NCBI GenBank assembly: GCA_022614955.1
Contig: JAKEHP010000027.1
Span: 16,555 to 80,554, forward strand
From: Candidatus Methylomirabilota bacterium
GTDB lineage: Bacteria > Methylomirabilota > Methylomirabilia > Methylomirabilales > JACPAU01
DNA: 64,000 nt
Direction: 5' to 3'
The notes under the pieces were generated by a model. The model was not told the origin of the DNA. It made no database searches and worked only from the letters and a program-made list of their open reading frames with translations. Below, one piece after another: positions 9,881 to 28,586 of this stretch (its first letter is position 1; each line of letters starts with the position of its first letter). A program made the translations under genes and the position numbers.

Positions 9881-10025
9881 CCGGTCCAGCGCCTCGCTCC
9901 GTGTGTGACCGCCGATCGCCGGCAGAGGAGCAGGCGACCTGGAGAAACTAAAACGTGCATCCCTTTGACCGGTCCGATTGAGCCGAAGCCACCCTTGGGC
10001 TCGTTGGACCAGGGGAGGTGAAGCC

Positions 10026-15126: not shown

Positions 15127-15639
15127 ATGACCACGCACCTGCCCGGCTGGCCGCTCGCCCTCTTTCGGATCGCCTTCGGGTTCCTTTACCTGGACATGGC
15201 TTTGCAAAAAGCCCCCTGGGTGGTGACCGACGGGCACCGGTTCGGCTGGCTGTACGGGTACATCGAGAAGGAAATCGCCCACCCCACCTTTGGGTGGTAC
15301 AAGGCCCTCCTGACGAACGTCATACTCCCGAACTTCACTTTCTTCGGCACCCTGACATTTCTGACCGAGGTCGCCCTGGGGGTGAGCCTACTCCTGGGCA
15401 TCTTCACTAGGCTCGGCGGCATGGCCGGCTTCCTCTGGCAGGTCAATATCGCGCTCGGGTCCTACAGCCTGCCGGGCGAATGGTTCTGGATCTGGCCCCT
15501 GCTCACCCTCCCGCAGTTCTGCTTCGCCTTCTGCGGGGCCGGGCGGGTCTGGGGGCTCGATGCCTGGCTGGATCCCGCCCTCAGCCGCCGGGCGGAGGGT
15601 GCCCCCGCCTGGGCACGCCTGCTCCGGTACGCCGTCTGA
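15127..15639 (+). CDS. DoxX-family membrane protein
   Basis: 170 aa, 4 TM, LALFRIAFGFLYLDMALQK N-terminus. GAAGGAG RBS. Confidence 0.65.
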   Translation: MTTHLPGWPLALFRIAFGFLYLDMALQKAPWVVTDGHRFGWLYGYIEKEIAHPTFGWYKALLTNVILPNFTFFGTLTFLTEVALGVSLLLGIFTRLGGMAGFLWQVNIALGSYSLPGEWFWIWPLLTLPQFCFAFCGAGRVWGLDAWLDPALSRRAEGAPAWARLLRYAV

Positions 15640-15658
15640 GGGCCGAGGGGGAGGCAAC

Positions 15659-17023: not shown

Positions 17024-17044
17024 CAGGCCCGTGGGACCATACCC

Positions 17045-18526
17045 ATGTCCATGACCATTCAAGTCATCGTCGGTCTGCTGTACCTGGTCGCTCTGGTCGG
17101 GCTGTTCCTGTACGGGATGAACGCCTACGTCATGCTGGCGGTTCACTGGTGGAATCGTCGCCGGGCCCAGGCGGCGCGGCCACCAGGACCTCCGACGGTC
17201 TGGCCGGCCGTCACGGTCCAGCTCCCGCTCTACAACGAGCGGTACGTGGCGCGACGCCTGCTCGAGGCGGCGGGCGGGCTCGACTACCCGGCCGACCGGC
17301 TCGAGATCCAGGTGCTGGACGACTCCACCGATGAGACCACGGACGTCCTTGCCGAAACCGTGACACGGCTCCGGGACCAGGGACTCACCGTCACGCATCT
17401 CCGCAGGGGAGAGCGGACCGGCTTCAAGGCCGGCGCGCTGGCGGCCGGCCTCCGGGAGGCGCGCGGCGATTTCGTGGCTGTCTTCGATGCCGACTTTGTC
17501 CCGCCGCCGGACTTTCTCCGGAGGAGCATCCCGCACTTCGCCGAGCCGAAGGTGGCCGTGGTCCAGGCCCGTTGGGGCCATCTGAACCGCGACTATTCCC
17601 TCGTCACTGTGGCCCAGTCCCTCGGGATCGACGGCCACTTCGGCGTGGAGCAGTCGGCGCGCTGCTGGGGGAACCTGCTCCTGAACTTTAACGGGACGGC
17701 CGGCGTGTGGCGCACGACGGCCATCGAGGACGCGGGCGGGTGGGCGCACGACACGCTGACCGAGGATCTCGACCTGAGCTACCGGGCCCAGCTTCGCGGC
17801 TGGCGCATCCTCTACCTCCCCGAGCTGGTCTGCCCGGCTGAGCTGCCGGTGCTGATCACGGGATTCAAGTCGCAGCAGCGCCGCTGGGCCAAGGGCTCCA
17901 TCCAGACCGCGCTGAAGCTCCTGCCCAGTGTCCTGCGGGCTCCCCTATCCGCCTGGACCAAGTACCAGGCGTTCATCCACCTGACCTATTACATGATCCA
18001 CCCGTTGATGCTGGCCACCGTGCTCCTGTCCGTCCCCCTGCTCGTCCTCCGGGATCTCACCCCCTCGACGGCGACCCTGGTCGCGGTGAGTCTGGGGATC
18101 GGCCTGGCCACCTTCGGGCCGGGGACCATGCTGGTGTATGCGCAGCGCGTTCTGGAGCCGGCGTGGTGGCAGCGGGTCTGGCGGTTGCCGACGATCATGG
18201 TCATCGGGGTCGGCGTGGCCTGGAGTACGAGCCTGGCCGTTCTGGGCGCCTTCTGGAGCAAGGACCGGGAGTTCATCCGCACGCCGAAGTTTGCCATCGG
18301 GCCCGGAGGCGGCACGTGGCGGGGGAAGGCGTACGGGGATCGCCGTCCTTGGGGCGGCGTGATGGAGATCGGGCTGGGCCTCTACTGTGCCTGGACCACC
18401 TGGCTCTTCTGGCACCATGGACAGTACGGCGTCCTGCCCTTCTTGACCCTCTACACTGCGGGCTTCCTCACGGTGGGCACCCTGACTATCTTCCAGGCGG
18501 CGGCTCGGGGCAGCCGACCCGCTTAG
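17045..18526 (+). CDS. processive family-2 glycosyltransferase (CslA/cellulose-synthase-like)
   Basis: Has DDSTD, FDADF, TEDLDLS and QQRRWAKG (QxxRW) motifs, with flanking TM helices. Confidence 0.9.
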   Translation: MSMTIQVIVGLLYLVALVGLFLYGMNAYVMLAVHWWNRRRAQAARPPGPPTVWPAVTVQLPLYNERYVARRLLEAAGGLDYPADRLEIQVLDDSTDETTDVLAETVTRLRDQGLTVTHLRRGERTGFKAGALAAGLREARGDFVAVFDADFVPPPDFLRRSIPHFAEPKVAVVQARWGHLNRDYSLVTVAQSLGIDGHFGVEQSARCWGNLLLNFNGTAGVWRTTAIEDAGGWAHDTLTEDLDLSYRAQLRGWRILYLPELVCPAELPVLITGFKSQQRRWAKGSIQTALKLLPSVLRAPLSAWTKYQAFIHLTYYMIHPLMLATVLLSVPLLVLRDLTPSTATLVAVSLGIGLATFGPGTMLVYAQRVLEPAWWQRVWRLPTIMVIGVGVAWSTSLAVLGAFWSKDREFIRTPKFAIGPGGGTWRGKAYGDRRPWGGVMEIGLGLYCAWTTWLFWHHGQYGVLPFLTLYTAGFLTVGTLTIFQAAARGSRPA

Positions 18527-18586
18527 GCGCACGAGCGTCATGCGCGTGCTTGGACCTGCCCGGCGCAGCCGGAAAGGAGCAGAGGA

Positions 18587-20209
18587 GTGATGACACGGTG
18601 GACCAAGGTAGGGACGGCCCTGGGTCTGGTCGGAATCCTCGGAGCAGGCGCGGCGCTGGCAGTCCGGGCGCAGAGCGCATCGGTCCCCCCGGCTGCGACG
18701 GTGCCCCTCGCCCAGAGCCACTGGCCAAAGTACCGCCACGACCTCTGGAACACCGGCCGGAGCGCCGTGAGCGGGCCTAAGACCAACGCGCTAAAGTGGA
18801 CCTTCTCCACGGGCCGCGCGGAGAAAGACGGCGGCATCGAGACCGACCCGGTCATCGGCCCCGACGGGACGGTGTACCTCGGGGCTAACAACGGCATCCT
18901 GTACGGGCTGGACCCCGAGACCGGGGATGTCCGGTGGGCCTTCCCGAGCGGCTTCGACACGTTCGGCATCTACTCCACGCCGGCCATCCTGAAGGACGGG
19001 ACGGTCGTCTTCGGTGCCAAGGACGGGAAGGTGTACGGGGTCCGGCCCCCCACAGCCGGCCTGCTGGGGGATCTCCGCTGGAGCGTAGATCTCAAGACCA
19101 CCATCCAGACCTCCCCGGGGATCGGTCCGGATGGGACGGTCTACGTCGGCGCCGACGACTGGAAACTCTACGCCATCGCCCCACCCCAGGGCCAGGTCCC
19201 GGCCCGGATCAAGTGGAGCTTCCAGACACAGGGGGACATGATCTCCTCGCCGGCCGTCGGCCCGGACGGCACGATCTACGTCGGCTCGATGGACGGCAAA
19301 GTGTATGCCCTGCAGGAGCCGGCCTCCGGTCAGCGCGAGCCCAAGGTCCGCTGGACATTTGCCAGCGGGAGCACGGGGAAGACCGGGGGGTTCGAAAACG
19401 CCCCGTCCCTGGACGAGACCGGGCGCCTGGTGATCGGCGGCAACGACGGGCTGGTCTATGCCTTGAACGCTGCCACGGGGGAAAAACTGTGGACCTTCAA
19501 GAGCCAGTTCACGGAGTACGCCATCTTCTCGTCCGCCGCGATCGGGACGGACGGTACCGTCTACATCGGGCCGAAGGATGGTTTCCTCTACGCGCTGCGG
19601 GAGTCCCGGGGCATCTTCGGCACGAGCGGGAAAGCCGGCTGGAAGTACAGGATCGGGACGACCATCGAGACGTCCCCGGCTCTGGCGCCGGACGGCACGG
19701 TCTATCTGGGGGCCGACAATGGGAAGCTCTACGCCATCGCTCCTCCCGCGTCCGGAGAGGCCGGCCGGCTGCTCTGGGAGTTCCAGACGAAGGGGACCCT
19801 GATCTCCTCGCCGGTGATCGGCTCGGACGGCTCGCTCTACAGCGGCTCCATGGATGGGAAGGTTTACGCCTTCCACGACAAGAAGCGGGGGCAATCGTCG
19901 CAGGGCCCACTGGCTGGGACCTGGTACGGCAGCGTGAGGCTGGGCGGCCAGGAGCAGAAGCTGACGCTGGTGCTGGCCCAGCGCCAGAGCCAGGTGGATG
20001 GCGTCCTGCGCCTCCAGTCCACCCTGGCCGGTGGCCTGCGCGGAACCCTCCAGGGGGAGCAGCTCAGCTACACGGCGTCACTGCTGGGAGACTGCCGGGC
20101 CGAGCACCAGGGGGAAGCCTCGGCAAAGGCGCAGGAGATCCGCGGCACCTTCCAGGTGAAGGATTGCCAGGGGCGGAGCATCCAGGGGACGTTCCGGGCC
20201 ACGCGATAG
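18587..20209 (+). CDS. secreted PQQ-like (BamB-type) beta-propeller repeat protein
   Basis: Signal peptide, then about 8 repeats of the GPDGTVYVG..DGKLYA type, plus a C-terminal ~110-aa extra domain. Confidence 0.8.
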   Translation: MMTRWTKVGTALGLVGILGAGAALAVRAQSASVPPAATVPLAQSHWPKYRHDLWNTGRSAVSGPKTNALKWTFSTGRAEKDGGIETDPVIGPDGTVYLGANNGILYGLDPETGDVRWAFPSGFDTFGIYSTPAILKDGTVVFGAKDGKVYGVRPPTAGLLGDLRWSVDLKTTIQTSPGIGPDGTVYVGADDWKLYAIAPPQGQVPARIKWSFQTQGDMISSPAVGPDGTIYVGSMDGKVYALQEPASGQREPKVRWTFASGSTGKTGGFENAPSLDETGRLVIGGNDGLVYALNAATGEKLWTFKSQFTEYAIFSSAAIGTDGTVYIGPKDGFLYALRESRGIFGTSGKAGWKYRIGTTIETSPALAPDGTVYLGADNGKLYAIAPPASGEAGRLLWEFQTKGTLISSPVIGSDGSLYSGSMDGKVYAFHDKKRGQSSQGPLAGTWYGSVRLGGQEQKLTLVLAQRQSQVDGVLRLQSTLAGGLRGTLQGEQLSYTASLLGDCRAEHQGEASAKAQEIRGTFQVKDCQGRSIQGTFRATR

Positions 20210-21231
20210 GAGAGCATTCCAGCGGGAAGAGCCTTCGCTACCCGTCAAACCCGGCGAGCAGCGCCAGGAGGAGGACCCCCGGGAGAGGCCCCCGGTACCT
20301 GCTGGCCCTGGTCCTTGCCCTTGGCGGATGCCTGGGGAGCCGAGAGATTCCCAGGGTGGCAACGGTCCCCGTCGGGCAGTGGCCCGAGGATGTGGCCTTC
20401 GATCCCGGATCGGATCAACTCTTTGTCGCCGATGAGGGGAGCGCGACGGTCACTGTTTTGAGATCGAACGGGCAGCCGGTCAGCACGATCCGACTTGCGA
20501 CGAGGGCCCGGCATCTGGCCGTGGATCCGGGACTCAGCCATCTCTATGCGCCGAATGAGGGGAGTGCCTTCGTCGCCGCCTTCAACACCCGGGATCTCAC
20601 GGAGCGCTTCCGGGTTCCCGTGGGGCGGCAGCCCCATGGGATCGCGGTGGATGGCTCCTCGCATCGCGTCTTCATCGGCAATGAGGGGGAGGGCTCCCTC
20701 ACCGCCTTTGAAGGCCGGACGGGCCAGGTCCTCTTTACGGTCCCGGTGGGAGAGGGTCCCGGCGGGGTTGCCGTGGATCCTGCGACGGGGCGAGTGTTCG
20801 TGGTGAGCGTAAAAGAAGACCGCGTGATCGTGGTGGATGGAAGAACGGGGCTCGGTCTTGCTAAGATCCCGGTCGGGCGAGGCCCCACGCACCTGCGGGT
20901 CAATGGGGAGACGGGGGTCGTCTATGTTTTGAACACCGAGGCCGGCAGTGTGAGCGTTCTGGATGGCCGCCGGGCGCGTCCCCTCGTCACGCTCCCCGTC
21001 GGGAGCTACCCCATCGGCATTGCGCTGGATGAGCGAGCAGGTCGGGCCTACGTGGTGAACAACCGGGGCAACACCCTCTCCATCGTCGAGGAGGCCACTC
21101 TGACGGTCGTGGCGACACGGCGGATTCCTCGGAACGTCTCCAGCGTGGCGCTGAACCCCCGCGCCGGACTGCTCTATCTCGCCCTGAAGAGCGATGATCG
21201 AGCCGTCCTGGTCCGGATGCGTGACCTCTGA
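20164..21231 (+). CDS. YVTN-type beta-propeller repeat lipoprotein (start uncertain)
   Basis: Lipobox LALVLALGGC followed by repeated P.GIAVDP..GRVYV.N...SVSVID-type blades. No ATG/GTG between the upstream stop and the lipobox; TTG 20164 is the only candidate. Confidence 0.65.
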   Translation: MPGAEHPGDVPGHAIGEHSSGKSLRYPSNPASSARRRTPGRGPRYLLALVLALGGCLGSREIPRVATVPVGQWPEDVAFDPGSDQLFVADEGSATVTVLRSNGQPVSTIRLATRARHLAVDPGLSHLYAPNEGSAFVAAFNTRDLTERFRVPVGRQPHGIAVDGSSHRVFIGNEGEGSLTAFEGRTGQVLFTVPVGEGPGGVAVDPATGRVFVVSVKEDRVIVVDGRTGLGLAKIPVGRGPTHLRVNGETGVVYVLNTEAGSVSVLDGRRARPLVTLPVGSYPIGIALDERAGRAYVVNNRGNTLSIVEEATLTVVATRRIPRNVSSVALNPRAGLLYLALKSDDRAVLVRMRDL

Positions 21232-21914
21232 TGGGAAGCCGCGAGGTTGCGCCCGTCGCGGTCTCGATCATGGCCAAGGCGCCCCGCGCGGGCGAGGTCA
21301 AGACCAGACTCTGTCCTCCCCTCTCCGCCACGGAGGCGGCCGAGCTGTACCGCTGCTTTTTGCTCGACAAGATCGAGCAGGTGCGGGCGCTCGAAGCGGC
21401 AAGCCCGGCCATCGCCTACGCGCCGGACGAGGGACGAATCCTGTTCGAAGAGCTGGCACCGGGCTTCGCCCTTGTCCCTCAGCGGGGGGCCGATCTAGGG
21501 AGCAGGCTGGCAGACAGCTTCGATCAGTTCTTTGCGAAAGGCTATGCGGGGGCGTTGGCCATTGATAGCGACACACCCACGCTGCCCAGGGATTTTTTGC
21601 AGCGGGCCCTCGACCTCATTGCGGCGCCGCACATTGATGTGGTGTTGGGGCCGACCGAGGACGGTGGCTACTACCTGATCGGGCTGCGGAAGCTTTACCG
21701 GGAGTTGTTCGAGGGGATTGCGTGGAGTACTTCCAAGGTCTTTCCGGAGACCGTCCGGCGGGCTGAGGCGAAGGGGCTGAGGATCGCATGTCTTCCCCCC
21801 TGGTTCGACGTTGACACCCCCGACGATCTGGACCGCCTGAAGGCCTCGCTGGCGGGGATCGAGGGGGGAGGACCCCGGCATACGCGGCGATTTTTCAGGG
21901 AGCGTGCGCGGTGA
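21231..21914 (+). CDS. DUF2064 / CofC-like nucleotidyltransferase-fold protein (resembles TIGR04282-type transferase)
   Basis: MAKAPRAGEVKTRLCPPLS...ALAIDSDTPTL...GPTEDGGYYLIG are DUF2064 hallmarks. Confidence 0.8.
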   Translation: MGSREVAPVAVSIMAKAPRAGEVKTRLCPPLSATEAAELYRCFLLDKIEQVRALEAASPAIAYAPDEGRILFEELAPGFALVPQRGADLGSRLADSFDQFFAKGYAGALAIDSDTPTLPRDFLQRALDLIAAPHIDVVLGPTEDGGYYLIGLRKLYRELFEGIAWSTSKVFPETVRRAEAKGLRIACLPPWFDVDTPDDLDRLKASLAGIEGGGPRHTRRFFRERAR

Positions 21915-22474
21915 AGAAGCTCTCGGAGATTCCCTGGAAGACCCTGTCCACGAAGTCCATGTACGCCAACCGATGGCTCTCCCTCCGGGAGGACCTGGTG
22001 GAGCTGCCTGACGGGCGCACCACCATCTATGGCGTGGTCACCTGCGGGCAGTGCGTGGGCATTCTTCCTTTCCTCGATCCCGACACGGTCCTTCTGATCC
22101 AGCAATACCGGTACGTGGCCCACCGCATGACGTGGGAGATGCCCACGGGTGGGGTGCATGCCGGGGAGTCAATCGAGGAGGCGGCCCAACGGGAGCTCGC
22201 TGAGGAAATTGGCTATCGGGCTTGCCGACTCACCCACGCGAGCACCTACCACACCAGCAAGAGCGTCGTGGACGAAACGGCCCACCTGTTTCTGGGGGAG
22301 GCAATGGTCAAGCTGGAACTTCCGCCCGATGAGACGGAGTTCATCGAAGTCCGCCCCTTCCCCTTTCACGAAGTCCTTCAGATGGTCCTCTCGGGCGAAA
22401 TCGTGGACAGCATGACGATCATCGCCGTCCTTCACGCCGCCCGCCGAGCGCGTGGAGGAGCGGGGGACACCTGA
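21911..22474 (+). CDS. NUDIX hydrolase (ADP-ribose pyrophosphatase-like)
   Basis: Nudix box GGVHAGESIEEAAQRELAEEIGY. GTGA overlap with the upstream gene. Confidence 0.85.
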   Translation: MKKLSEIPWKTLSTKSMYANRWLSLREDLVELPDGRTTIYGVVTCGQCVGILPFLDPDTVLLIQQYRYVAHRMTWEMPTGGVHAGESIEEAAQRELAEEIGYRACRLTHASTYHTSKSVVDETAHLFLGEAMVKLELPPDETEFIEVRPFPFHEVLQMVLSGEIVDSMTIIAVLHAARRARGGAGDT

Positions 22475-22787
22475 ACGGGGAGGCTTTGCCGTCCGCCTCT
22501 CCGCGAGGGCGGGCCCGAATCTTCAGAAGCTCCCCGCGCATCTGACGAGCACCTGGAAAGGGGAGGGTGGTGGTACTCCGTGGGGGTTGCGAGGTGGCGA
22601 GACCCCGAGCAGGAGGCGACTGCGATGGAACGGATCAGTGCGATCGAACGGCCAGGATTCGCGATGCGCTCGGAGCCTTGCTGATTTTCCCCCGGCCCTC
22701 TCCGGTAACCGTTCACAGAACCGGACTGGCAAGCACTCCAGCAGGGAGATCCCGTCGTCAAGACCCGTTCGGTGGTACCCCTGGCCT

Positions 22788-23034
22788 GAAGTCAGAGTGT
22801 ACCGACGGATCGCTGCCTCCCCTGAAGAGGTGATGGCCGCCTATGCCGACTTCGAAAGCCAGGCTGGTTATCTCCCCAACCTGGTTGAAAGTCGCATCGT
22901 GAGGCCCCACGCGCAGGCAAATCCAAGAAACGGTTCAGGCCTTGGCAGCCCGTGTGGAGCGGCTCCGGACCGCGCAGCAGGAAAAGCTCAAGACGCTGAC
23001 CGACACCTTGCAGTTCATGCTTGACGAACCCTAG
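22788..23034 (+). pseudogene. remnant of an SRPBCC (cyclase/dehydrase-like) gene
   Basis: About 43 codons read EVRVYRRIAASPEEVMAAYADFESQAGYLPNLVESRIVR. The frame then degenerates. A different frame carries a helical tail to TAG 23032-23034. No start codon. Confidence 0.3.
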
Positions 23035-23090
23035 GACCTCGGGAGGCTTGACGACCCACCCGCCCCCTTCGTATCAATCGGGGTGTCGCG

Positions 23091-23942
23091 TTGCAGAAAA
23101 AGAAGGCCCCACCATCCTCAACACTGAGCTCACTCGTGTCCACTCCGATCTCGATTGCCTTTGCGAGAGGTGCCGCTGCGTATAAGGCGTACCTCGAAAG
23201 CCCTCATGGGCGCCTCCGGCTGGAGCTGATCTGGCATCAACTGTCGGGCTTCATGGGGAAGGCATGGGGAGCGGACCGGCGCCCGCTGCAGGTTCTCGAC
23301 ATCGGCTGCGGGACCGGAGAACTCTCCCTCCGGCTCGCTGCGCGGGGTCACGCGGTGGTCCTCCTCGATCCGGTGGAGGAGATGCTTCGCCTGGCCGAGG
23401 AGACCGCCCGGGCTCTGGAGTCTCCTCCGGTGATTCCACCGCGCTTCGTGCACGGATCGCTGGAGGTGGCGCCCGCTCTCTTCGGGAAAAGCACCTTCGA
23501 CCTCGTGCTCTGCCACACCCTTCTGGAATACCTCCCGGACCCCCGCAGTGTGCTGGCTCTCCTCCGAACCTTGCTGACCCCAGGAGGATTCCTCTCCCTC
23601 GTTGCCTTGAACCGCGGGCAGGAGCCTCTCCGCCTGGCCATCCGGGATGGCAAATTCGAAGAGGCGAGGAGGGCCCTCGCCGGGGACGTGCCGATGGATT
23701 CCCTCTTTGGTCTTCCGCGAAATGGGATGCTGAAGGACCAACTGCAAGCGCAACTGGAGGCGGCTGGGATCAACAGCGTCGCCCACGCGGGGATCTTCGT
23801 GTTCGCCGACTATCTCCCGGCGGGGAGGCTGGAGGATCCCGCCTCCTTTGCTCCTCTCCTCCGCCTGGAACTGGAAGCCGGAGGCCTCTCGCCCCTCCGA
23901 GAGATCGCTCGCTATCTTCACCTGTGGGGAAGGCGGGCATGA
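23091..23942 (+). CDS. class I SAM-dependent methyltransferase (SmtA/CmoM-like)
   Basis: Motif I VLDIGCGTGELSL, post-I LLDPVEEML, and LTPGGFLSLV. TTG start as in the track; start uncertain. Confidence 0.85.
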   Translation: MQKKKAPPSSTLSSLVSTPISIAFARGAAAYKAYLESPHGRLRLELIWHQLSGFMGKAWGADRRPLQVLDIGCGTGELSLRLAARGHAVVLLDPVEEMLRLAEETARALESPPVIPPRFVHGSLEVAPALFGKSTFDLVLCHTLLEYLPDPRSVLALLRTLLTPGGFLSLVALNRGQEPLRLAIRDGKFEEARRALAGDVPMDSLFGLPRNGMLKDQLQAQLEAAGINSVAHAGIFVFADYLPAGRLEDPASFAPLLRLELEAGGLSPLREIARYLHLWGRRA

Positions 23943-23960
23943 TGGCCAGAGGGGAAGCTC

Positions 23961-24641
23961 ATGCGAATCGCGGTCGTTATTCCCGCCTTGGATGAGGAGG
24001 CGGCCATCGGTGAGGTAGTCAGGGGGGTCCCCAGGGACCTGGCGGGGGAGATCATCGTGGTGGATAACGGCAGCATGGATCGCACGGCGGAGGTGGCCCG
24101 CGCTGCCGGCGCCCGGGTGATCCCGGAGCCGATGCGGGGCTACGGGGCGGCCTGTCTGGCCGGAGCGATGGCAGCCCGCGATGCCGACATTCTCGTGTTC
24201 CTGGACGGCGACCGGAGCGATGATCCCGCCGAGATGCCGCTCCTCCTCCGACCGATTCTGAGTGGTCAGGCCGATCTGGTAGTCGGCTCACGCATTGCCG
24301 GCTTCGTTGAAGACGGAGCGTTGACCTCCCACCAGCGGTTCGGCAATCGGCTGGTCACCTGGATGCTTCGGGTGCTCTACGGCCTCACGCTGACCGACAT
24401 CGGACCCTTTCGGGCCATCCCGGCGCGCGTTCTCCGTGATCTCGGGATGGAGCACAAGACCTATGGCTGGCCTGTCGAGATGATCGTCAAGGCGGCCAAG
24501 AAGGGCTACCGGGTTGTGGGGGTCCCTGTGAGTTGTCGCAAGCGGGTCGGGCGTTCGAAGGTGGCGGGAACGCTGAAAGGGAGCCTCCTGGCGGGCTATC
24601 ACTTGCTCTTCACCACGTTGCGGTATGCCTGGAGGAGGTAG
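23961..24641 (+). CDS. family-2 glycosyltransferase (DPM1-like; resembles TIGR04283-type transferase)
   Basis: VVIPALDEE...VVDNGSMDRT...FLDGDRSDDP motifs. C-terminal amphipathic/TM tail. Confidence 0.85.
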   Translation: MRIAVVIPALDEEAAIGEVVRGVPRDLAGEIIVVDNGSMDRTAEVARAAGARVIPEPMRGYGAACLAGAMAARDADILVFLDGDRSDDPAEMPLLLRPILSGQADLVVGSRIAGFVEDGALTSHQRFGNRLVTWMLRVLYGLTLTDIGPFRAIPARVLRDLGMEHKTYGWPVEMIVKAAKKGYRVVGVPVSCRKRVGRSKVAGTLKGSLLAGYHLLFTTLRYAWRR

Positions 24642-24645
24642 CGCG

Positions 24646-25638
24646 ATGGCATTCTCCGTTGGCATCGGCCTCACCAACGAATGCAATCTCCGGTGTCCCC
24701 ATTGCTACCGCCCGGATATGGTGATTGACCGCCTGACCTTCCAGGACGTGAAGCAGGTCTGCGAGAGCATTCCCGTGAGGTCAATGAACCTCGGCGTCGG
24801 GGAGAATGGTCTCCACCCCGAATACCAGGCCATCCTGGCGTACCTCGGCGCCCGGGAAATCAAGACGAGCATCACCTCCAACGGCCTGAGCATTCAGGTG
24901 CTCGCAGACGAGGCGCTCAAACGGTTCCACAGCGTGGAGTTCTCCCTGGATTTCCCCACGGAGCGGGAACATGACGCTTTCCGGGGGCAAGGAAACTGGC
25001 GGGCGGTGATGGCAGCCTTGGAGCGGTGCGCCGCCCTCGGCCTCCGGGTCACGGTGACCTCAGTGATGATGAGCATCAACTCCGACAGGTTGGCGGACCT
25101 CGCCCGGGTGGCTTCCGCGCGCGGCGCCAACCTCCGGGTCAATATCTATCAACCCGCGAAGACCGATCGGTTCACCCTGACGTACGCGCAATTCTGGGAT
25201 GGGTTCAGGCAGCTCTCGGCCTGCACGCGCCTGGTGGCCACCACCGAGCCCGTCCTGGCAGCGGTGCTGGGGCTGGAGGGGTTCGCGGGGCCGGGGTGTG
25301 GCCGCTCCACGGTCCGGGTTGCCCCGGACGGCCGGGTTCTCCCCTGTACCTACTGGCCGAAAAGTCGCCTGACCCTTGCCGACCTCAACGCGCTGGGAGA
25401 GGGGATCCTCCAGACACCGGAATTCCTCGAGGCCAGGCGGGTGCCTGCGGCGTGCGACGGGTGCCCCTGTCGGGGAGGCTGCGCGGGCAGGCGGGCCTTG
25501 GTAGGGAGTCTGGAGGACCCCGATCCGTACTGCCCCTTTGTGAGGAGAGAGAGAATCGTCATGGACTGGGAGCAGGCGATGGGGGAAGACCTCCCGAAGG
25601 TGGGGAGCGCCTGTACCACCGTGGTCTCGGCGAGGTAG
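24646..25638 (+). CDS. radical SAM protein with C-terminal SPASM-like Cys-rich domain
   Basis: CNLRCPHC (Cx3Cx2C) at residues ~12-19. C-terminal CGRS...C...CDGCPCRGGCAG...YCPF. GGAGGAGG RBS. Confidence 0.85.
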   Translation: MAFSVGIGLTNECNLRCPHCYRPDMVIDRLTFQDVKQVCESIPVRSMNLGVGENGLHPEYQAILAYLGAREIKTSITSNGLSIQVLADEALKRFHSVEFSLDFPTEREHDAFRGQGNWRAVMAALERCAALGLRVTVTSVMMSINSDRLADLARVASARGANLRVNIYQPAKTDRFTLTYAQFWDGFRQLSACTRLVATTEPVLAAVLGLEGFAGPGCGRSTVRVAPDGRVLPCTYWPKSRLTLADLNALGEGILQTPEFLEARRVPAACDGCPCRGGCAGRRALVGSLEDPDPYCPFVRRERIVMDWEQAMGEDLPKVGSACTTVVSAR

Positions 25639-25659
25639 GCCTTCGCCCGGAGGAGCGAG

Positions 25660-26667
25660 ATGGAAGAACCGACGCGTCCCCCCGTTGTTGCGACGTTACC
25701 CCGGACCCTCTATCTCGAGACGACCAATCGCTGTGACTCGAAATGTCAGACGTGCATTCGCACCTTTCAGACCCTGGAGCCTCCCAAGGACCTCACCCTG
25801 GCTGAGCTGAAAGGGATCGTGGAGCAGTTTCCCGTCCTGGACAGGGTTATTCTGCATGGAATCGGCGAGCCGCTCCTCAACCGGGAGCTGTTCGAGATGA
25901 TCGCGTACCTGAAGGCCAGGGGCGCGACGGTCCTCTTCAACTCCGATGCCATCACGCTCACCCCGAAGCGGGCAGGCCAGCTCATCGAGAGCGGCCTGGA
26001 TGAGTTCCGGGTCTCGATGGATGCGGCAACCAGAGAAATGTTTGCGAAAGTCCGGGGGGTGGATCAGTTTGATCGGGTGGTGGGAAACGTGGAGCACCTG
26101 GTAGAACTGCAGCGGAGGCTGGAGCGACAGACCCCTCGGGTCTCCCTCTGGTTTACCGCCATGAAAGCCAACCTCGACGAGCTGCCTGCCTTCGTGCGCC
26201 TCGCCGCCAGGGTCGGGGTGCCGGAGGTCTATGTCCAGCGCCTCGTCTTCTACGGCCAAGGGTTGGCCGTGCAGGAGCAGTCGCTTCACGGAGCGGTCCG
26301 AGAGCGGGAACAGTGCCTGATCGAAGAGGCGGAGGGGCTGGCCCGGGCCTCTGGCATCGCCTTCAAGGCCTCGGGCCTGACCGCGCCCCTGGCGAGCCTC
26401 AAGGGCACGGAGCTGGGCAGACGGCCCTGGTCTGGCTGCCAGCGCCCGTGGACCTTGAGCTACGTCACGGCCAACGGCAACGTCCTTCCCTGCTGCATCT
26501 CCCCCTGGACGGCGAAGGACTATCGGGGGGCCGTTCTGGGCAATGCCTTCACACAGGATTTTTCGGCCATCTGGAACGGGGAGCGGTACCAGCAGTTCCG
26601 AAAGGACTTCGAGACGGACATCCCTCCCGATCCCTGCCGGGGGTGCGGACTGCTCTGGAGCATCTGA
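25660..26667 (+). CDS. radical SAM/SPASM domain protein (MoaA/NifB/PqqE superfamily)
   Basis: CDSKCQTC cluster motif, GIGEPLL, and C-terminal CQRPW...VLPCCISPW...CRGCGLLW. Confidence 0.85.
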   Translation: MEEPTRPPVVATLPRTLYLETTNRCDSKCQTCIRTFQTLEPPKDLTLAELKGIVEQFPVLDRVILHGIGEPLLNRELFEMIAYLKARGATVLFNSDAITLTPKRAGQLIESGLDEFRVSMDAATREMFAKVRGVDQFDRVVGNVEHLVELQRRLERQTPRVSLWFTAMKANLDELPAFVRLAARVGVPEVYVQRLVFYGQGLAVQEQSLHGAVREREQCLIEEAEGLARASGIAFKASGLTAPLASLKGTELGRRPWSGCQRPWTLSYVTANGNVLPCCISPWTAKDYRGAVLGNAFTQDFSAIWNGERYQQFRKDFETDIPPDPCRGCGLLWSI

Positions 26668-26753: not shown

Positions 26754-28586
26754 ATGCCCACACGCAGTCCCCGTCCCTGGCAGCGCCTCAGCGTTCGGGT
26801 GGCGGCGTTCTTCGTGGCCGTCACCCTGCTCGGGATCGGTCTCGTCGGGTCGCTCATCTACCAGCAACTGAAGCGGGAGGTGGAGGAGACCCTCGGGACC
26901 TTCCTCCTGAACATCGCGCGCACCGGGGTGCTGCTGATTGATCCGGCGCTCCACGACGAGGTCGAGGCCACTTTGGCCCAGGACTCGGACGCGTACCGTC
27001 GCCTCCGCACCACCCTCGCGGCGATTCAGGACGAGAACGGCGTCGAGACGCCCATTTACACCCTCACCGGCTTCGATGCCGGGGCGCGCATGGCTCGCTT
27101 CATGGTGACGAGCCGGGGGCCGGGGCTCCCGGGTGAAGCCTACGCGCTTGTCCCCGCACTCCTCGACCCGATCGGGCGGACCTTCCGCGAGGGGATCGCC
27201 TCTCGCACGCACGTCTATTCCAACGAGCACGGCACCTGGATCACGGCCTTCGCCCCGATCCGGGGGGCCGGCGGGGGCGTCCGGGCCGTCCTCGATGTAG
27301 ACTATCGGGTTGACGTCTATCAGGAGCGGCTGGCGGGACTTCGCCAGACGGTTGTCGGGACTTCCCTGTTCGGGGGACTCGTCGCGCTCCTCGCCGGAGT
27401 GCTCTTCGCCCGTCGGGTCACCGGACCGGTCAGTGCTCTCACCCGCGGTGTGGCCCGAGTGGCAGAGGGAGACCTCTCGCAGTCGCTCCCGGTCCGCTCG
27501 CAGGATGAGGTGGGACACCTGACGCGCGCCTTCAACGAGATGCTGGAAGGCCTCCGCCAGCGGGACTTCATCCGGGATACCTTGGGCCGCTACGTCTCGC
27601 CCGAGGTCGCCCGGACTCTCCTGGAGTCGCCCGAGGGGCTCAGCCTGGGCGGTGAGAAGCGGGAGGTCACGATCCTGATGTCGGACCTGCGTGGCTACAC
27701 GCGGTTCGCGGAGGAGGGCGACCCGGCCGTCGTGATGCAGGTTCTCAATGGGTATCTGGCGCGGATGACCGAGATCATCATCGAGCACGGCGGCACCGTC
27801 AACGAGTTCATCGGCGACGCGATCTTTGCCATCTTCGGCGCGCCGCTGGCCCACCCGGACCACGCCGAGCGCGCCGCCGCGTGCGCCATCGCCATGCAGT
27901 GCGCGATGGAGGAGGTGAACCGGCTCCACGTGTCCCGCGGCCTGCCACGGCTCGAGATGGGGATCGGCGTCAACACCGGCGAGGCGGTCGTGGGAAACAT
28001 CGGCTCCGAGAAACGCGCCAAGTACGGCGTGGTGGGAAGCGCCGTGAACCTCGCGGCTCGCGTGGAGGGCTGCACGGTCGGTGGCCAGGTCCTCTTGAGC
28101 CCGTACACCTACGATCGGATTCGCACAATTGCTGAGGTTGGCCCGCCCCTCCCTATCGAAGTCAAGGGGATCCGCGAGCCCCTCCTCCTCTACGAGCTCC
28201 GGGCGCTGGCCGGGCTCCATGCCCAACGCCTCCCTGAAGCCGCCACAGACGCTGGCCCCGATGTGCCCGCAGTCCTGCCGCTTTTCTGCTGGGTAATCGA
28301 GGGCAAGGCCGTCCATCCGGACCGCGTGAGCGGGGAGGTGCTTCGGCTCGGTTCGCGGCGGCTCGAGGCGCGGCTCGATCGCCACCTCCCCCCGCTGACA
28401 AACGTCCGCCTCCGCCTCCACTATCCAGCGCTCGCACAGGACTCCGCCGACCTCTACGGGAAGGTGCTGGCCATTGACGAGCAGGCCGGCGCGTGGGTTG
28501 CTCGGATCGGGCTGACGTCGGTGGATGCCGCCGACCAGCAGATCCTGGAGACGTTTCTCAGGGCGGGTGGCCCCCTTCCTCTCTGA
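26754..28586 (+). CDS. membrane class-III adenylate/guanylate cyclase with periplasmic sensor, HAMP domain and C-terminal PilZ-like extension
   Basis: TM, ~150-aa extracytoplasmic region, TM, HAMP (PVSALTRGVARVAEGDLSQ). Cyclase core VTILMSDLRGYT...GDAIFAIFGAP...GVNTGEAVVGNIGS..R.KYGVVGSAVNLAAR. About 110 extra C-terminal residues. Confidence 0.85.
   Translation: MPTRSPRPWQRLSVRVAAFFVAVTLLGIGLVGSLIYQQLKREVEETLGTFLLNIARTGVLLIDPALHDEVEATLAQDSDAYRRLRTTLAAIQDENGVETPIYTLTGFDAGARMARFMVTSRGPGLPGEAYALVPALLDPIGRTFREGIASRTHVYSNEHGTWITAFAPIRGAGGGVRAVLDVDYRVDVYQERLAGLRQTVVGTSLFGGLVALLAGVLFARRVTGPVSALTRGVARVAEGDLSQSLPVRSQDEVGHLTRAFNEMLEGLRQRDFIRDTLGRYVSPEVARTLLESPEGLSLGGEKREVTILMSDLRGYTRFAEEGDPAVVMQVLNGYLARMTEIIIEHGGTVNEFIGDAIFAIFGAPLAHPDHAERAAACAIAMQCAMEEVNRLHVSRGLPRLEMGIGVNTGEAVVGNIGSEKRAKYGVVGSAVNLAARVEGCTVGGQVLLSPYTYDRIRTIAEVGPPLPIEVKGIREPLLLYELRALAGLHAQRLPEAATDAGPDVPAVLPLFCWVIEGKAVHPDRVSGEVLRLGSRRLEARLDRHLPPLTNVRLRLHYPALAQDSADLYGKVLAIDEQAGAWVARIGLTSVDAADQQILETFLRAGGPLPL

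What the first reader, a model, noticed from the sequence alone, without database searches (positions are those of the whole stretch)
21231..26667. DUF2064 + NUDIX + methyltransferase + GT2 + two radical-SAM/SPASM enzymes: a compact modification cluster of unknown product
The DUF2064 (CofC-like) and DPM1-like GT2 pair resembles the TIGRFAMs pair that I recall being named 'rSAM/selenodomain-associated transferase 1 and 2'. In other genomes that pair accompanies a radical-SAM protein with a Sec/Cys-rich domain (ArsS-type).

Here the partner position is occupied by two different SPASM-type radical SAM enzymes, plus a SAM methyltransferase and a NUDIX hydrolase. No precursor-peptide ORF is evident.

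The combination (nucleotidyl activation, glycosyl transfer, methylation, two radical steps) points to an undescribed small-molecule, lipid or sugar product. The organism also uses selenium.
Basis: partly seen in the sequence, partly recalled or inferred. Interest (0 to 1): 0.6.

Follow-up and report, generated by a model that had tools for sequence, protein, structure and literature searches.

The report
Conserved radical-SAM envelope glycosylation cluster
The six genes are real and belong to a larger, uncharacterised gene set found in at least five bacterial phyla that most likely builds an unusual, radical-enzyme-modified sugar on a lipid carrier and attaches it to the cell envelope, which means the 'arsenosugar' label carried by one of its genes is probably wrong here.

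Summary
All six ORFs sit at the stated coordinates. The DUF2064 protein passes the TIGR04282 cut-off (184.5 vs 134 bits). The small GT2 fails TIGR04283 (46 vs 182 bits) and resembles polyprenyl-phosphate sugar synthases (DPMS, ArnC, AglJ). Neither radical SAM enzyme reaches the cut-off of any curated family.

The cluster is larger than reported, about 15127-26667. It also includes a DoxD-like small membrane protein, a GT-C glycosyltransferase (GT87/MptA_B; best fold match PimE) and a cellulose-synthase-like GT2. In a closed 5.6 Mb relative these genes form one tightly packed same-strand run.

The core (GT2 + DUF2064 + rSAM2, a BtrN-like Twitch radical SAM enzyme, ± GT-C) recurs in five phyla: Methylomirabilota/Rokuibacteriota, Chloroflexota (including cultured Ktedonobacter), Acidobacteriota, Alphaproteobacteria and Eremiobacterota. 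Natural fusions join GT-C::DUF2064, DUF2064::rSAM2, GT2::rSAM2 and GT-C::methyltransferase.

Best reading (0.5): a lipid-carrier-dependent envelope glycosylation system whose sugar is tailored by radical chemistry. It parallels the ArsS triad in architecture but is not part of it. No precursor peptide was found. The product and acceptor are unknown.

The parts
15127..15639 (+). DoxD/DoxX-like small membrane protein (170 aa). It lies directly upstream of the GT-C gene. Candidate flippase or redox partner; this role is inferred only.
   Evidence: Pfam DoxD 31.4 bits. tblastn finds it in 48 related loci, usually between rSAM2 and the GT-C gene. Annotated DoxD in L112, L113 and L114.
15659..17023 (+). 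GT-C fold membrane glycosyltransferase (GT87 / MptA_B family, 454 aa).
   Evidence: Pfam GT87 39.5 bits. Precomputed PF26314 MptA_B_family + PF09594 on all orthologues, and P0121 is 100% identical over 454 aa, which fixes the start at GTG 15659. AF2 model pLDDT 80. The best Foldseek matches, in order, are PimE, ALG6, GPI mannosyltransferase I, ALG9, ArnT and ALG3. Occurs fused to DUF2064 or to a methyltransferase in other genomes.
17045..18526 (+). Membrane GT2 with a cellulose-synthase-like fold (493 aa). Accessory; mainly in Methylomirabilota/Rokuibacteriota.
   Evidence: Pfam Glyco_tranf_2_3 92 bits. Similar to CelA, PgaC and MftF, all below cut-off. PDB matches BcsA and PcManGT 6yv7. Present in 22 of 104 loci.
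18587..20209 (+). Beta-propeller protein of the PQQ/BamB type (540 aa), with an N-terminal hydrophobic stretch read by eye as a signal peptide. Syntenic only in close relatives.
   Evidence: Pfam PQQ_2 and Beta-prop_ACSF4. Synteny.
20356..21231 (+). YVTN/NHL beta-propeller protein. The start is uncertain (TTG 20164 or GTG 20356). A lipobox-like LALGGC lies upstream of 20356. Not conserved elsewhere in the cluster, apart from one weak match in L044 (48% identity).
   Evidence: TIGR02276 repeat 96 bits. Start-codon scan.
21231..21914 (+). DUF2064 / TIGR04282 CofC-like (nucleotidyl)transferase (227 aa).
   Evidence: TIGR04282 184.5 bits against 134; CofC 36.6 bits below cut-off. PDB 3cgx, E 1e-29. 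Invariant P18-x2-G-x2-KTRL, D114-x-P116 (DSDxP in most sequences) and GPxxDGGYYLxG motifs across phyla. Partners in other phyla also pass the cut-off.
21911..22474 (+). NUDIX hydrolase (187 aa), of the NDP-sugar / ADP-ribose pyrophosphatase type.
   Evidence: Pfam NUDIX 71.7 bits; NudE 77.8 and YffH/AdpP 42.5 bits, both below cut-off. The orthologue in L114 carries PF28549 NDPSase_N.
22475..23090 (.). 616-bp non-coding junction with a short SRPBCC (Polyketide_cyc2) remnant. Probably a rearrangement scar where the MT-GT2-rSAM1-rSAM2 block was joined.
   Evidence: No ORF with high third-position GC. Weak Polyketide_cyc2 hit at 23.5 bits. The same junction is 124 bp in L002, and the gene order differs in L001 and L114.
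23091..23942 (+). Class I SAM methyltransferase (283 aa; the start could be later). Travels with rSAM1.
   Evidence: Methyltransf_25/11/12. CmoM-like over its full length, 100.6 bits, below cut-off. MT-rSAM1 are adjacent in L070, L086, L097 and L109.
23961..24641 (+). Small soluble GT2 (226 aa, no TM segment). Polyprenyl-phosphate sugar synthase-like catalytic domain.
   Evidence: AglJ 135.9, dolichyl-P hexose transferase 84.4 and PpgS 66.9 bits, all below cut-off; TIGR04283 46.3 bits against 182. The family profile matches P. furiosus DPMS (74.5 bits) and ArnC (52 bits) over full length, but GpgS only over the N-terminal 100 aa. A GT2::rSAM2 fusion exists, P0242.
24646..25638 (+). rSAM1: radical SAM enzyme with a canonical seven-Cys SPASM domain (330 aa). 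Accessory module.
   Evidence: CX3CX2C plus conserved C225, C241, C280, C282, C286, C303 and C330. Best HMMs are MftC at 86 bits (cut-off 265) and GeoRSP at 70.6. PDB profile matches SkfB, PqqE, GDGT-MAS, BlsE and anSME. Present in 23 of 44 loci.
25660..26667 (+). rSAM2: radical SAM enzyme with a Twitch-like single auxiliary cluster (335 aa). The conserved core enzyme.
   Evidence: Invariant C25/C29/C32 and C260/C278/C326/C329 across phyla. TIGR04311 134.7 bits against 400; TIGR04317 129.8 against 380. The closest solved sequence is BtrN, over both the core and the Twitch region. Fold matches include SkfB, SuiB, DesII, viperin, BlsE and MoaA. 516 clusters (50% identity) at E<=1e-30.
11608..14442 (+). 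Possible accessory: 944-aa polytopic membrane protein with a C-terminal sulfatase-superfamily domain (LtaS/EptA/OpgB-like architecture). Lower GC than its surroundings (window 12001-14000 is 56% GC).
   Evidence: Pfam Sulfatase 105.6 bits. Weak EptA and LtaS hits. Syntenic downstream of the cyclase gene in L003, L006, L007, L008 and L010. GC profile.
26754..28586 (+). HAMP-domain adenylate/guanylate cyclase. A syntenic neighbour in close relatives; possible regulator. Not part of the cross-phylum core.
   Evidence: Pfam HAMP + Guanylate_cyc. Synteny.

Best explanation
The six genes are part of a conserved, membrane-associated glycosylation system. Its cross-phylum core has four or five parts:
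1. A soluble DPM1/AglJ/ArnC-like GT2.
2. A TIGR04282 DUF2064 (CofC-like) transferase.
3. A BtrN-like Twitch radical SAM enzyme (rSAM2).
4. A GT-C fold glycosyltransferase of the GT87/MptA_B type.
5. Usually a DoxD-like small membrane protein.

Proposed mechanism (inferred):
- On the cytoplasmic face, DUF2064 activates or transfers a nucleotide-linked precursor.
- rSAM2 abstracts a hydrogen atom from the sugar and so re-tailors it (oxidation or epimerisation type chemistry). The sugar could be nucleotide-linked or already polyprenyl-phosphate-linked.
- The small GT2 loads the sugar onto polyprenyl phosphate.
- The lipid-linked sugar is flipped; the DoxD-like protein is a candidate for this step.
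- The GT-C enzyme transfers it to an envelope acceptor outside the membrane.

In this window and its relatives, an accessory module adds further tailoring and polymerisation. It consists of SPASM rSAM1, a methyltransferase, an NDP-sugar-type NUDIX hydrolase and a cellulose-synthase-like GT2.

Shown: gene content, family assignments, conservation, gene fusions and the GT-C fold. Inferred: order of steps, substrate, flippase role and acceptor.
For: Conservation:
- 104 loci carry an rSAM2 orthologue. Of the 44 with at least 5 kb on both sides, 39 have DUF2064, 39 have the small GT2, 32 have the GT-C protein and 23 have rSAM1.
- The hosts span five phyla: Methylomirabilota/Rokuibacteriota, Chloroflexota, Acidobacteriota, Alphaproteobacteria and Eremiobacterota. 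Chloroflexota includes cultured Ktedonobacter racemifer, K. robiniae, Ktedonospora formicarum and Dictyobacter species.
- Gene order varies while gene content is kept.
- In Blastocatellia and Stellaceae the flanking genes are unrelated housekeeping genes, so the module is self-contained.
- In a closed 5.6 Mb genome the genes form one tightly packed same-strand run, which I read as an operon: GT2-rSAM1-rSAM2-DoxD-GT-C-GT2-propeller-DUF2064-NUDIX.

Fusions (Rosetta-stone evidence):
- GT-C::DUF2064 in at least 7 clusters.
- GT-C::methyltransferase.
- DUF2064::rSAM2 in 4 separate 50%-identity clusters.
- GT2::rSAM2 (P0242).
- Partial GT-C::rSAM2.

Component identities:
- The GT-C fold is confirmed. 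The best Foldseek matches, in order, are PimE, ALG6, GPI-MT-I, ALG9, ArnT and ALG3, all lipid-phosphate-sugar-dependent enzymes. Pfam MptA_B_family is also present.
- The GT2 family profile matches dolichol-P-mannose synthase and ArnC over full length.
- The closest solved relative of rSAM2 is the carbohydrate-oxidising Twitch enzyme BtrN. It has exactly one conserved four-Cys auxiliary site plus a spare adjacent Cys.
- DUF2064 keeps its transferase motifs.
- The NUDIX protein is of the NDP-sugar hydrolase type.
- In Ktedonobacteraceae the triad sits beside a MurJ-family flippase gene and an M23 peptidase gene.
Against: - No biochemical function is known for any TIGR04282 member.
- All family-level hits of the GT2 and of both radical SAM enzymes are below curated cut-offs.
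- The GT2 lacks the transmembrane helices of GtrB and DPMS.
- No recognised GtrA, Wzx or ArnE/F flippase is in the cluster.
- No sugar-nucleotide biosynthesis gene or obvious acceptor gene is conserved.
- 12 of 44 well-flanked loci, mostly Ktedonobacteraceae, lack the GT-C gene within 10 kb.
- The structural neighbours of rSAM2 also include peptide-modifying enzymes (SkfB, SuiB), and the AF2 model is of only moderate quality, pLDDT 74.5.
- No expression data exist; only DNA metagenomes hold the sequence.
Confidence: 0.5

Rival explanations
1. It is a divergent version of the ArsS-type pathway (TIGR04167 + TIGR04282 + TIGR04283). In this reading rSAM2 would attach a 5'-deoxyadenosyl-derived unit to arsenic, selenium or another heteroatom or carbon. 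The two transferases would then process that nucleoside-like product into an arsenosugar-like or selenosugar-like compound or lipid.
For: - DUF2064 passes the TIGR04282 cut-off here and in all partner loci tested.
- The same three-part architecture is present: small GT2 + DUF2064 + radical SAM enzyme.
- From memory, the TIGRFAM description of that pathway also lists a phosphoesterase; here a NUDIX hydrolase is present.
- The organism encodes a Sec-containing SelD 5 kb away.
- The methyltransferase has faint ArsM-type hits of 22-24 bits.
Against: - rSAM2 does not list ArsS among its best 25 hits. rSAM1 scores 29 bits against a cut-off of 300.
- No third radical SAM gene is present in the window.
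- The GT2 fails TIGR04283 (46 and 39 bits against 182).
- selD is absent from the 111 related loci held when it was searched.
- No ArsM-grade methyltransferase or arsenic resistance gene is conserved.
- The tight linkage and fusion to a GT-C glycosyltransferase is unexplained by arsenosugar chemistry.
Confidence: 0.12
2. The two radical SAM enzymes mature a peptide or protein. This would be RiPP-like or anSME/QhpD-like, for example acting on the neighbouring secreted beta-propellers. The glycosyltransferases would then decorate that protein.
For: - The best structural neighbours of rSAM2 are SkfB and SuiB.
- The best HMMs and PDB matches of rSAM1 are MftC, SkfB, PqqE and anSME.
- Secreted propeller genes lie inside the cluster in the window and in close relatives.
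Against: - No conserved small ORF lies next to either enzyme in about 100 loci.
- No N-terminal RRE/PqqD domain is present; the radical SAM motif starts at residue ~20 of rSAM1 as listed (about residue 13 from the corrected start) and ~25 of rSAM2. No PqqD-like gene turned up among the neighbouring genes scanned against Pfam.
- The propellers are absent from most loci (PQQ-type in 11 of 104).
- rSAM2 is fused to DUF2064, the GT2 and the GT-C protein rather than to peptide-handling domains.
Confidence: 0.1
3. The module makes a glycosylated soluble or membrane redox cofactor, analogous to mycofactocin or F420: a CofC-like activation step, an MftC-like radical SAM enzyme, an MftF-like GT2 and an MftM-like methyltransferase. 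The neighbouring DoxD-like or sulfite-oxidase-like proteins would use it.
For: - DUF2064 is CofC-related.
- rSAM1's best HMM is MftC, and the large GT2 hits MftF at 85.8 bits.
- The DoxD-like protein is found in 48 loci.
- A membrane protein with a sulfite-dehydrogenase-like molybdenum domain lies next to the GT-C gene in 11 loci, 10 of them Chloroflexota.
Against: - All mycofactocin and F420 HMM scores are far below cut-off.
- No MftA/B/D/E or CofD/E/G/H genes are present.
- rSAM1, the large GT2 and the methyltransferase are accessory, not core.
- A GT-C glycosyltransferase has no role in known cofactor pathways.
Confidence: 0.08
4. The genes are neighbours by chance or by shared regulation only, with no common pathway.
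For: - The window copy is rearranged relative to its relatives and contains a 616-bp non-coding junction.
Against: - Co-occurrence holds in five phyla with shuffled gene order.
- Multiple independent gene fusions exist.
- The genes form a tightly packed same-strand run in a closed genome.
Confidence: 0.02

Closest known systems
ArsS-associated triad (NCBIfam TIGR04167 ArsS + TIGR04282 + TIGR04283; formerly 'rSAM/selenodomain-associated transferases 1 and 2')
   Same: Same three-part layout: a small GT2, a DUF2064 protein and a radical SAM enzyme. The DUF2064 protein meets the TIGR04282 cut-off.
   Different: The radical SAM partner is a BtrN-like Twitch enzyme, not ArsS. The GT2 is DPM1/AglJ/ArnC-like, not TIGR04283. 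The system is linked, and in places fused, to a GT-C glycosyltransferase and a DoxD-like protein. No arsenic genes are present.
Three-component lipid-carrier glycosylation systems (GtrA/GtrB/GtrC; ArnC/ArnE-F/ArnT; Ppm1/PimE-MptA/B; PpgS/Rv3779; CsbB/YfhO). Named from established knowledge.
   Same: A GT2 polyprenyl-phosphate sugar synthase-like enzyme is paired with a GT-C transferase. The GT2 profile matches DPMS and ArnC. The GT-C model's best match is PimE, and ArnT is also among the top matches.
   Different: The GT2 has no membrane anchor. No known flippase family is present. Two extra cytoplasmic enzymes (DUF2064 and a radical SAM enzyme) are obligatory partners and are sometimes fused to the GT-C protein. 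I know of no described system of this class that uses a radical SAM enzyme, and a targeted literature search found none.
Radical SAM carbohydrate-tailoring enzymes: BtrN (Twitch dehydrogenase), DesII, BlsE; and NeoN (epimerase), recalled from memory
   Same: rSAM2's closest solved sequence is BtrN, over both the core and the auxiliary-cluster region, with one four-Cys auxiliary site. DesII and BlsE are among its fold neighbours.
   Different: Sequence similarity is low (about 50 bits). The substrate is unknown. The context is envelope glycosylation rather than antibiotic biosynthesis.
Mycofactocin pathway (MftC radical SAM, MftF GT2, MftM methyltransferase)
   Same: The combination of a SPASM radical SAM enzyme, a GT2 and a methyltransferase. 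MftC is rSAM1's best HMM, and MftF is a weak hit for the 493-aa GT2.
   Different: All scores are below cut-off. There is no precursor peptide, MftB, MftD or MftE. These three genes are the accessory part of the system, not the core.

Membership tests
TIGR04282 (DUF2064, 'arsenosugar biosynthesis glycosyltransferase') | HMM score above the curated cut-off (134 bits) | tested here: met
   184.5 bits for window 21231-21914. 156.5-194.7 bits for partners in Ktedonobacter, Stellaceae, Blastocatellia, Baltobacteraceae and NC10.
TIGR04282 (DUF2064, 'arsenosugar biosynthesis glycosyltransferase') | Genomic association with ArsS (TIGR04167) and TIGR04283, which is the basis of the family name | tested here: not met
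   Only two radical SAM motifs occur in the 64-kb window, and neither protein is ArsS. The partner GT2 fails TIGR04283.
TIGR04283 (GT2, 'arsenosugar biosynthesis glycosyltransferase') | HMM score above the curated cut-off (182 bits) | tested here: not met
   46.3 bits, N-terminal 84 residues only. 39.2 bits for the Ktedonobacter orthologue.
ArsS (TIGR04167) | HMM score above the cut-off (300 bits) | tested here: not met
   rSAM1 scores 29 bits. rSAM2 does not list ArsS among its best 25 hits.
Radical SAM superfamily, SPASM/Twitch subgroup | CX3CX2C motif plus a C-terminal Cys-rich auxiliary-cluster domain | tested here: met
   rSAM1 has the seven-Cys SPASM pattern (CX2CX5CX3C in relatives). 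rSAM2 has one four-Cys Twitch-like site, invariant across 23 diverse sequences. Pfam SPASM 58 bits and N_Twi_rSAM 54 bits.
Characterised SPASM families (AhbC, AhbD, NirJ, PqqE, MftC, anSME, tungsten-enzyme maturase TIGR04317) | Score above each curated cut-off | tested here: not met
   Best scores: rSAM2 with TIGR04311 134.7/400, TIGR04317 129.8/380, AhbD 67.6/500; rSAM1 with MftC 86.2/265.
Polyprenyl-phosphate sugar synthases (DPM1/DPMS, AglJ, ArnC, PpgS, GtrB) | Full-length GT-A catalytic-domain similarity, including a DXD motif | tested here: met
   The profile matches DPMS 5mlz at 74.5 bits over positions 1-214 and ArnC at 52 bits over 1-202. A 'FLDGD' motif is present in the sequence.
Polyprenyl-phosphate sugar synthases (DPM1/DPMS, AglJ, ArnC, PpgS, GtrB) | Curated equivalog cut-off, membrane anchor, and demonstrated transfer to polyprenyl phosphate | tested here: not met
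   AglJ 135.9/325, dolichyl-P hexose transferase 84.4/375, PpgS 66.9/370. The protein is 226 aa and, by my reading of its length and its alignment to the DPMS catalytic domain, has no transmembrane segment (no TM predictor was run). Enzyme activity is not testable here.
GT-C glycosyltransferases (GT87 / MptA_B) | GT-C fold with a conserved acidic motif in the first external loop | tested here: met
   Pfam GT87 and MptA_B_family. Foldseek to PimE gives TM-score 0.64 (target-normalised), probability 1.00, followed in order by ALG6, GPI-MT-I, ALG9, ArnT and ALG3. D93, D100, G101 and R102 are invariant and S92 nearly so, within the LSTDLYRYLWDGR stretch.
Three-component lipid-carrier glycosylation system | Dedicated flippase (GtrA, ArnE/F, Wzx or GtcA type) | tested here: inconclusive
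   No such family was detected. A conserved small DoxD-like membrane protein is adjacent, and MurJ is adjacent in Ktedonobacteraceae. The flippase role is only inferred.
RiPP or protein-maturase system | Precursor peptide and an RRE/PqqD recognition element | tested here: not met
   No conserved small ORF was found in about 100 loci. Neither enzyme has an N-terminal extension. No PqqD-type Pfam hit was found in the cluster proteins scanned.
Mycofactocin system | MftA/B/C/D/E/F gene set with scores above cut-off | tested here: not met
   MftC 86/265 and MftF 85.8/280. No other Mft genes are in the cluster.

The most novel reading that the evidence does not exclude
A previously unrecognised pathway, present in at least five phyla, in which a Twitch radical SAM enzyme and a DUF2064 transferase are physically coupled to a polyprenyl-phosphate sugar synthase and a GT-C glycosyltransferase. 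In some genomes they are fused. The pathway would install a radical-tailored sugar on the cell envelope. It would be the first radical-SAM-dependent member of the lipid-carrier glycosylation systems. It would also mean that a large share of proteins annotated 'TIGR04282 arsenosugar biosynthesis glycosyltransferase' have nothing to do with arsenic.
Probability: 0.4. Interest if true: 0.75.

Novelty: new variant of a known kind. Interest (0 to 1): 0.62.

Why it matters
- It gives DUF2064/TIGR04282, a family with no tested function, a concrete and testable context. The family is already being read in the literature as an arsenic gene on the strength of its name alone.
- It proposes radical SAM chemistry as a way to make unusual envelope sugars in lineages whose envelopes are almost unstudied: Rokuibacteriota, NC10, Ktedonobacteria and soil Acidobacteriota.
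- Several hosts are cultured (Ktedonobacter, Ktedonospora, Dictyobacter). The Ktedonobacter version is a three-gene GT2-DUF2064-rSAM2 run, so the question is experimentally tractable.
- The gene fusions define which proteins should be studied together.

Tried and rejected
- Rfam and tRNA scans of the window found nothing in the cluster; the only hit is a SAM riboswitch at 60638-60753.
- The promoter and terminator scan was no better than shuffled sequence.
- A search for conserved small ORFs found only out-of-frame shadows of real genes. This search did, however, reveal the DoxD-like gene.
- Literature searches for DUF2064, 'selenodomain-associated', radical SAM + GT-C/polyprenyl, and radical SAM + DoxX returned nothing relevant. 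The TIGR04282 papers only repeat the family name.
- A sequence search of the PDB with the GT-C protein found nothing. The fold search was needed instead.
- The aminotransferase::rSAM2 fusion in Chloroflexia locus L042 looked like a BtrS/BtrN-type clue. It is unique to that one long-read MAG, its domain is a class I/II rather than a sugar aminotransferase, and the C-terminus of that gene looks frame-shifted. It was not used as evidence.
- The idea that a radical SAM enzyme matures the neighbouring sulfatase-family protein (anSME-like) was rejected. By my reading of the sequence, that protein has a Thr-type site (GGGTF) rather than a C/S-x-P-x-R motif. It is syntenic only in a few NC10 loci.
- selD linkage was rejected: selD is absent from the related loci.
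- No RNA data exist for this organism.
- The 191-aa gene that follows NUDIX in L114 has no counterpart in the window's 616-bp gap.

Full report
OBSERVATION

The window is high-GC. Its closest relatives are Methylomirabilales and Rokuibacteriota MAGs, with up to 90% protein identity. Only sediment and groundwater DNA metagenomes hold the sequence.

- DUF2064, 21231-21914
- NUDIX, 21911-22474
- methyltransferase, 23091-23942
- GT2, 23961-24641
- rSAM1, 24625/24646-25638
- rSAM2, 25660-26667

They have the third-position GC bias of real genes. Gaps between them run from -4 to 21 bp, apart from one 616-bp gap after NUDIX.

HMM searches give the following:
- DUF2064: Pfam 109 bits, and TIGR04282 184.5 bits against a cut-off of 134.
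- NUDIX: NudE/YffH-like, below cut-off.
- A class I methyltransferase, CmoM-like over its full length, below cut-off.
- A GT2 whose best models are AglJ (135.9), dolichyl-phosphate hexose transferase (84.4) and PpgS (66.9). TIGR04283 scores only 46.3 bits against 182.
- Two radical SAM proteins that reach no curated cut-off. rSAM1 scores MftC 86/265. rSAM2 scores TIGR04311 135/400, TIGR04317 130/380 and AhbD 68/500.

The other is not met: the radical SAM enzymes are not AhbC/AhbD or any other named family.

THE UNIT IS LARGER AND REARRANGED

I ran tblastn with the window proteins against 49 loci, then 111 loci, fetched around rSAM2 homologues. The same gene set recurs, with this usual order in Methylomirabilota/Rokuibacteriota:

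[MT]-GT2-rSAM1-rSAM2-(small gene)-GT87-like-GT2(493 aa)-PQQ-type propeller-DUF2064-NUDIX

The small gene came to light through a conserved 'intergenic' block. It is a 170-aa DoxD/DoxX-like membrane protein at window 15127-15639 and is found in 48 loci.

In a closed 5.6 Mb relative the whole set forms one tightly packed same-strand run, which I read as an operon, followed by a 191-aa gene and then the same HAMP-cyclase gene that follows rSAM2 in the window. The window is therefore a permuted copy. The MT-GT2-rSAM1-rSAM2 block now sits after NUDIX. The 616-bp gap, with its SRPBCC remnant, is best read as the junction scar. The functional unit in the window spans about 15127-26667.

A 944-aa membrane protein of the sulfatase superfamily lies upstream at 11608-14442. 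Window 12001-14000 is 56% GC, lower than the surroundings. It is syntenic in five NC10 loci and may be an accessory.

CROSS-PHYLUM CORE

A profile scan found rSAM2 orthologues at about 50% identity in:
- Ktedonobacteria, including cultured K. racemifer DSM 44963, K. robiniae, Ktedonospora formicarum, Dictyobacter alpinus and D. arantiisoli
- Anaerolineae and Chloroflexia
- Blastocatellia and other Acidobacteriota
- Stellaceae and other Alphaproteobacteria
- Baltobacteraceae

Of 44 loci with at least 5 kb on both sides:

| Neighbour of rSAM2 | Loci (of 44) |
|---|---|
| DUF2064 | 39 |
| small GT2 | 39 |
| GT87-like protein | 32 |
| rSAM1 | 23 |
| NUDIX | 12 |
| large GT2 | 11 |
| methyltransferase | 8 |

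In Ktedonobacteraceae the unit is a bare GT2-DUF2064-rSAM2 gene run, beside a MurJ-family gene and an M23 peptidase gene. In Blastocatellia and Stellaceae the flanks are unrelated housekeeping genes, so the module is self-contained. rSAM1 travels with the methyltransferase and often with NUDIX as a second module (L066, L070, L086, L097, L109). All DUF2064 partners tested pass TIGR04282, and their GT2 partner fails TIGR04283.

GENE FUSIONS

Homologue searches exposed natural fusions:
- GT87::DUF2064: P0146, P0147, P0149, P0171, P0213, P0223 and P0229, 620-676 aa, from several MAGs.
- GT87::methyltransferase: P0202.
- DUF2064::rSAM2: P0262, P0264, P0270 and P0276, four different 50%-identity clusters.
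- GT2::rSAM2: P0242.
- GT87 C-terminal part::rSAM2: P0289 and P0333, both partial.

This is strong evidence that the four proteins act together at the membrane. rSAM2 and DUF2064 are expected to work in the cytoplasm: rSAM2 needs an Fe-S cluster and SAM, and DUF2064, if it is a CofC-like nucleotidyltransferase, needs nucleotides. The C-terminus of the GT-C protein must then be cytoplasmic. This is an inference. It agrees with what I recall of the PimE structure.

COMPONENTS

GT87-like protein:
- It carries Pfam GT87 and MptA_B_family.
- Its AF2 model has pLDDT 80.
- Its best PDB matches, in order, are PimE, ALG6, GPI mannosyltransferase I, ALG9, ArnT and ALG3, with Emb proteins further down. 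All are GT-C enzymes that use lipid-phosphate-sugar donors.
- D93, D100, G101 and R102 are invariant and S92 nearly so, within the LSTDLYRYLWDGR stretch.

Small GT2:
- The family profile matches P. furiosus dolichol-phosphate mannose synthase and ArnC over full length.
- It matches GpgS only over the nucleotide-binding half.
- It has the DXD motif but, by my reading of its length and alignment, no membrane segment.

rSAM2:
- It has the radical SAM triad plus one invariant four-Cys auxiliary site and a 96%-conserved adjacent Cys.
- Its closest solved sequence is BtrN, which oxidises a carbohydrate-type alcohol. The match covers both the core and the Twitch region.
- Fold neighbours mix peptide enzymes (SkfB, SuiB) with enzymes that act on nucleotides or nucleotide-linked sugars (DesII, viperin, BlsE, MoaA).
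- The family has 516 clusters (50% identity) at E<=1e-30.

rSAM1 is a canonical seven-Cys SPASM protein. Its weak relatives are SkfB, PqqE, GDGT-MAS, BlsE and anSME.

DUF2064 keeps a CofC-type P-x2-G-x2-KTRL signature, a DSDxP motif and GPxxDGGYYLxG. It matches PDB entry 3cgx.

MECHANISM

Shown: the gene set, its conservation, the fusions, the GT-C fold and the family-level resemblances.

Inferred: a lipid-carrier glycosylation route. A nucleotide-activated precursor is made or handled by DUF2064, and its pool is edited by the NDP-sugar-type NUDIX hydrolase. The precursor is re-tailored by hydrogen abstraction at rSAM2, giving oxidation or epimerisation. This happens either before or after the small GT2 loads the sugar onto polyprenyl phosphate. 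The lipid-linked sugar is then flipped, and the DoxD-like protein is a candidate for that step. Finally the GT-C enzyme transfers it to an envelope acceptor.

In the window's lineage, rSAM1 and the methyltransferase add further tailoring, and the cellulose-synthase-like GT2 may build or extend the acceptor glycan.

I put 0.5 on this general model, and much less on any individual step.

RIVALS

- ArsS-like organo-arsenic or organo-selenium pathway: 0.12.
- Peptide or protein maturation: 0.10.
- Glycosylated cofactor: 0.08.
- Chance neighbourhood: 0.02.

The evidence for and against each is in the Rival explanations section. The key discriminators are:
- absence of ArsS, TIGR04283 and arsenic genes
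- absence of a precursor peptide and recognition domain
- the fusions to a GT-C enzyme

selD, with an in-frame Sec codon, is present 5 kb away. The organism therefore does use selenium. But selD is not linked to the cluster elsewhere.

COMPARISON AND NOVELTY

The system works like the three-component lipid-carrier glycosylation systems (Gtr, Arn, Ppm1/PimE, PpgS/Rv3779). It mirrors the layout of the ArsS triad. It is a member of neither:
- It fails the TIGR04283 and ArsS tests.
- It lacks a known flippase and a membrane anchor on the GT2.
- It adds two obligatory cytoplasmic enzymes.

Seven full-text searches turned up no paper describing such a system or any function for DUF2064. The two papers that mention TIGR04282 treat it as an arsenic gene by name only. 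I rate it a new variant of a known kind.

LIMITS

No chemistry, acceptor or expression data are available. Many assignments rest on sub-threshold HMM scores. The rSAM2 model is only of moderate confidence.

Noticed in passing
window 31918-32976 (-): selD (TIGR00476, 351 bits) with an in-frame TGA in the N-terminal GAG-U-ACK motif, so this is a selenocysteine-containing SelD. It confirms selenium use. It is not syntenic with the cluster in any of the 111 related loci held when it was searched.
   Followed up: yes
window 60638-60753 (+): SAM (S-box) riboswitch, 92.8 bits, upstream of a PLP-dependent (PALP family) enzyme gene at 61088-62338.
   Followed up: partly
window 9978-10685 and 10722-11402 (+): Two consecutive ORFs together make up one DUF3179 protein. 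The first has HEAT repeats plus DUF3179 positions 1-64; the second has positions 81-292. This is a split gene, either a frameshift/pseudogene or an assembly error.
   Followed up: no
window 11608-14442 (+): A 944-aa polytopic membrane protein with a sulfatase-superfamily domain, in a region of clearly lower GC than its flanks (window 12001-14000 is 56% GC against 66-69% further out). It is syntenic with the cluster in several NC10 loci. Possibly an LtaS/EptA/OpgB-like transferase acting on the same envelope product.
   Followed up: partly
window 22475-23090: Non-coding gap with a short SRPBCC/Polyketide_cyc2 remnant. It looks like the scar of the rearrangement that moved MT-GT2-rSAM1-rSAM2 behind NUDIX.
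   Followed up: partly
L079 7804-9567; also L042, L085, L089, L090, L093, L095, L098, L110, L075, L028: In Chloroflexota the GT-C gene is often followed by a ~590-aa protein with an unassigned N-terminal ~290 aa and a SoxC/SorA-like sulfite-dehydrogenase molybdenum domain. Together with the DoxD-like protein elsewhere, this hints at a redox or sulfur link that the model does not explain.
   Followed up: partly
L042 8768-10900: A single case of a class I/II aminotransferase domain fused to rSAM2, in a Chloroflexia long-read MAG. The C-terminus of the gene looks frame-shifted. The fusion was not found in any other locus.
   Followed up: yes
L084 11907-13457 (-) and 13792-14982 (+), and 7 other Ktedonobacteraceae loci: A MurJ-family flippase gene and an M23 peptidase gene lie directly next to the GT2-DUF2064-rSAM2 genes in Ktedonobacteraceae.
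   Followed up: partly
window 38123-38776 (-): AmmeMemoRadiSam system protein A (TIGR04335, 163 bits against 99). No third radical SAM motif exists in the window, so its usual radical SAM partner is not adjacent.
   Followed up: no
window 39425-41475 (+): cysK (TIGR01139, 426 bits) is followed by a MoeB/MoeZ-type adenylyltransferase whose N-terminus resembles a SAMP1/MoaD ubiquitin-like sulfur carrier (52 bits, just below cut-off). This may be a fused carrier-E1 protein for thiocarboxylate-dependent cysteine synthesis.
   Followed up: no
L046 3741-10952; proteins P0291, P0307, P0336, P0350, P0355, P0385: Distant rSAM2-like domains (23-31% identity) occur as three tandem paralogues in a Planctomycetia contig. 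They also occur as giant proteins of 779-1444 aa with two or three radical SAM domains.
   Followed up: no
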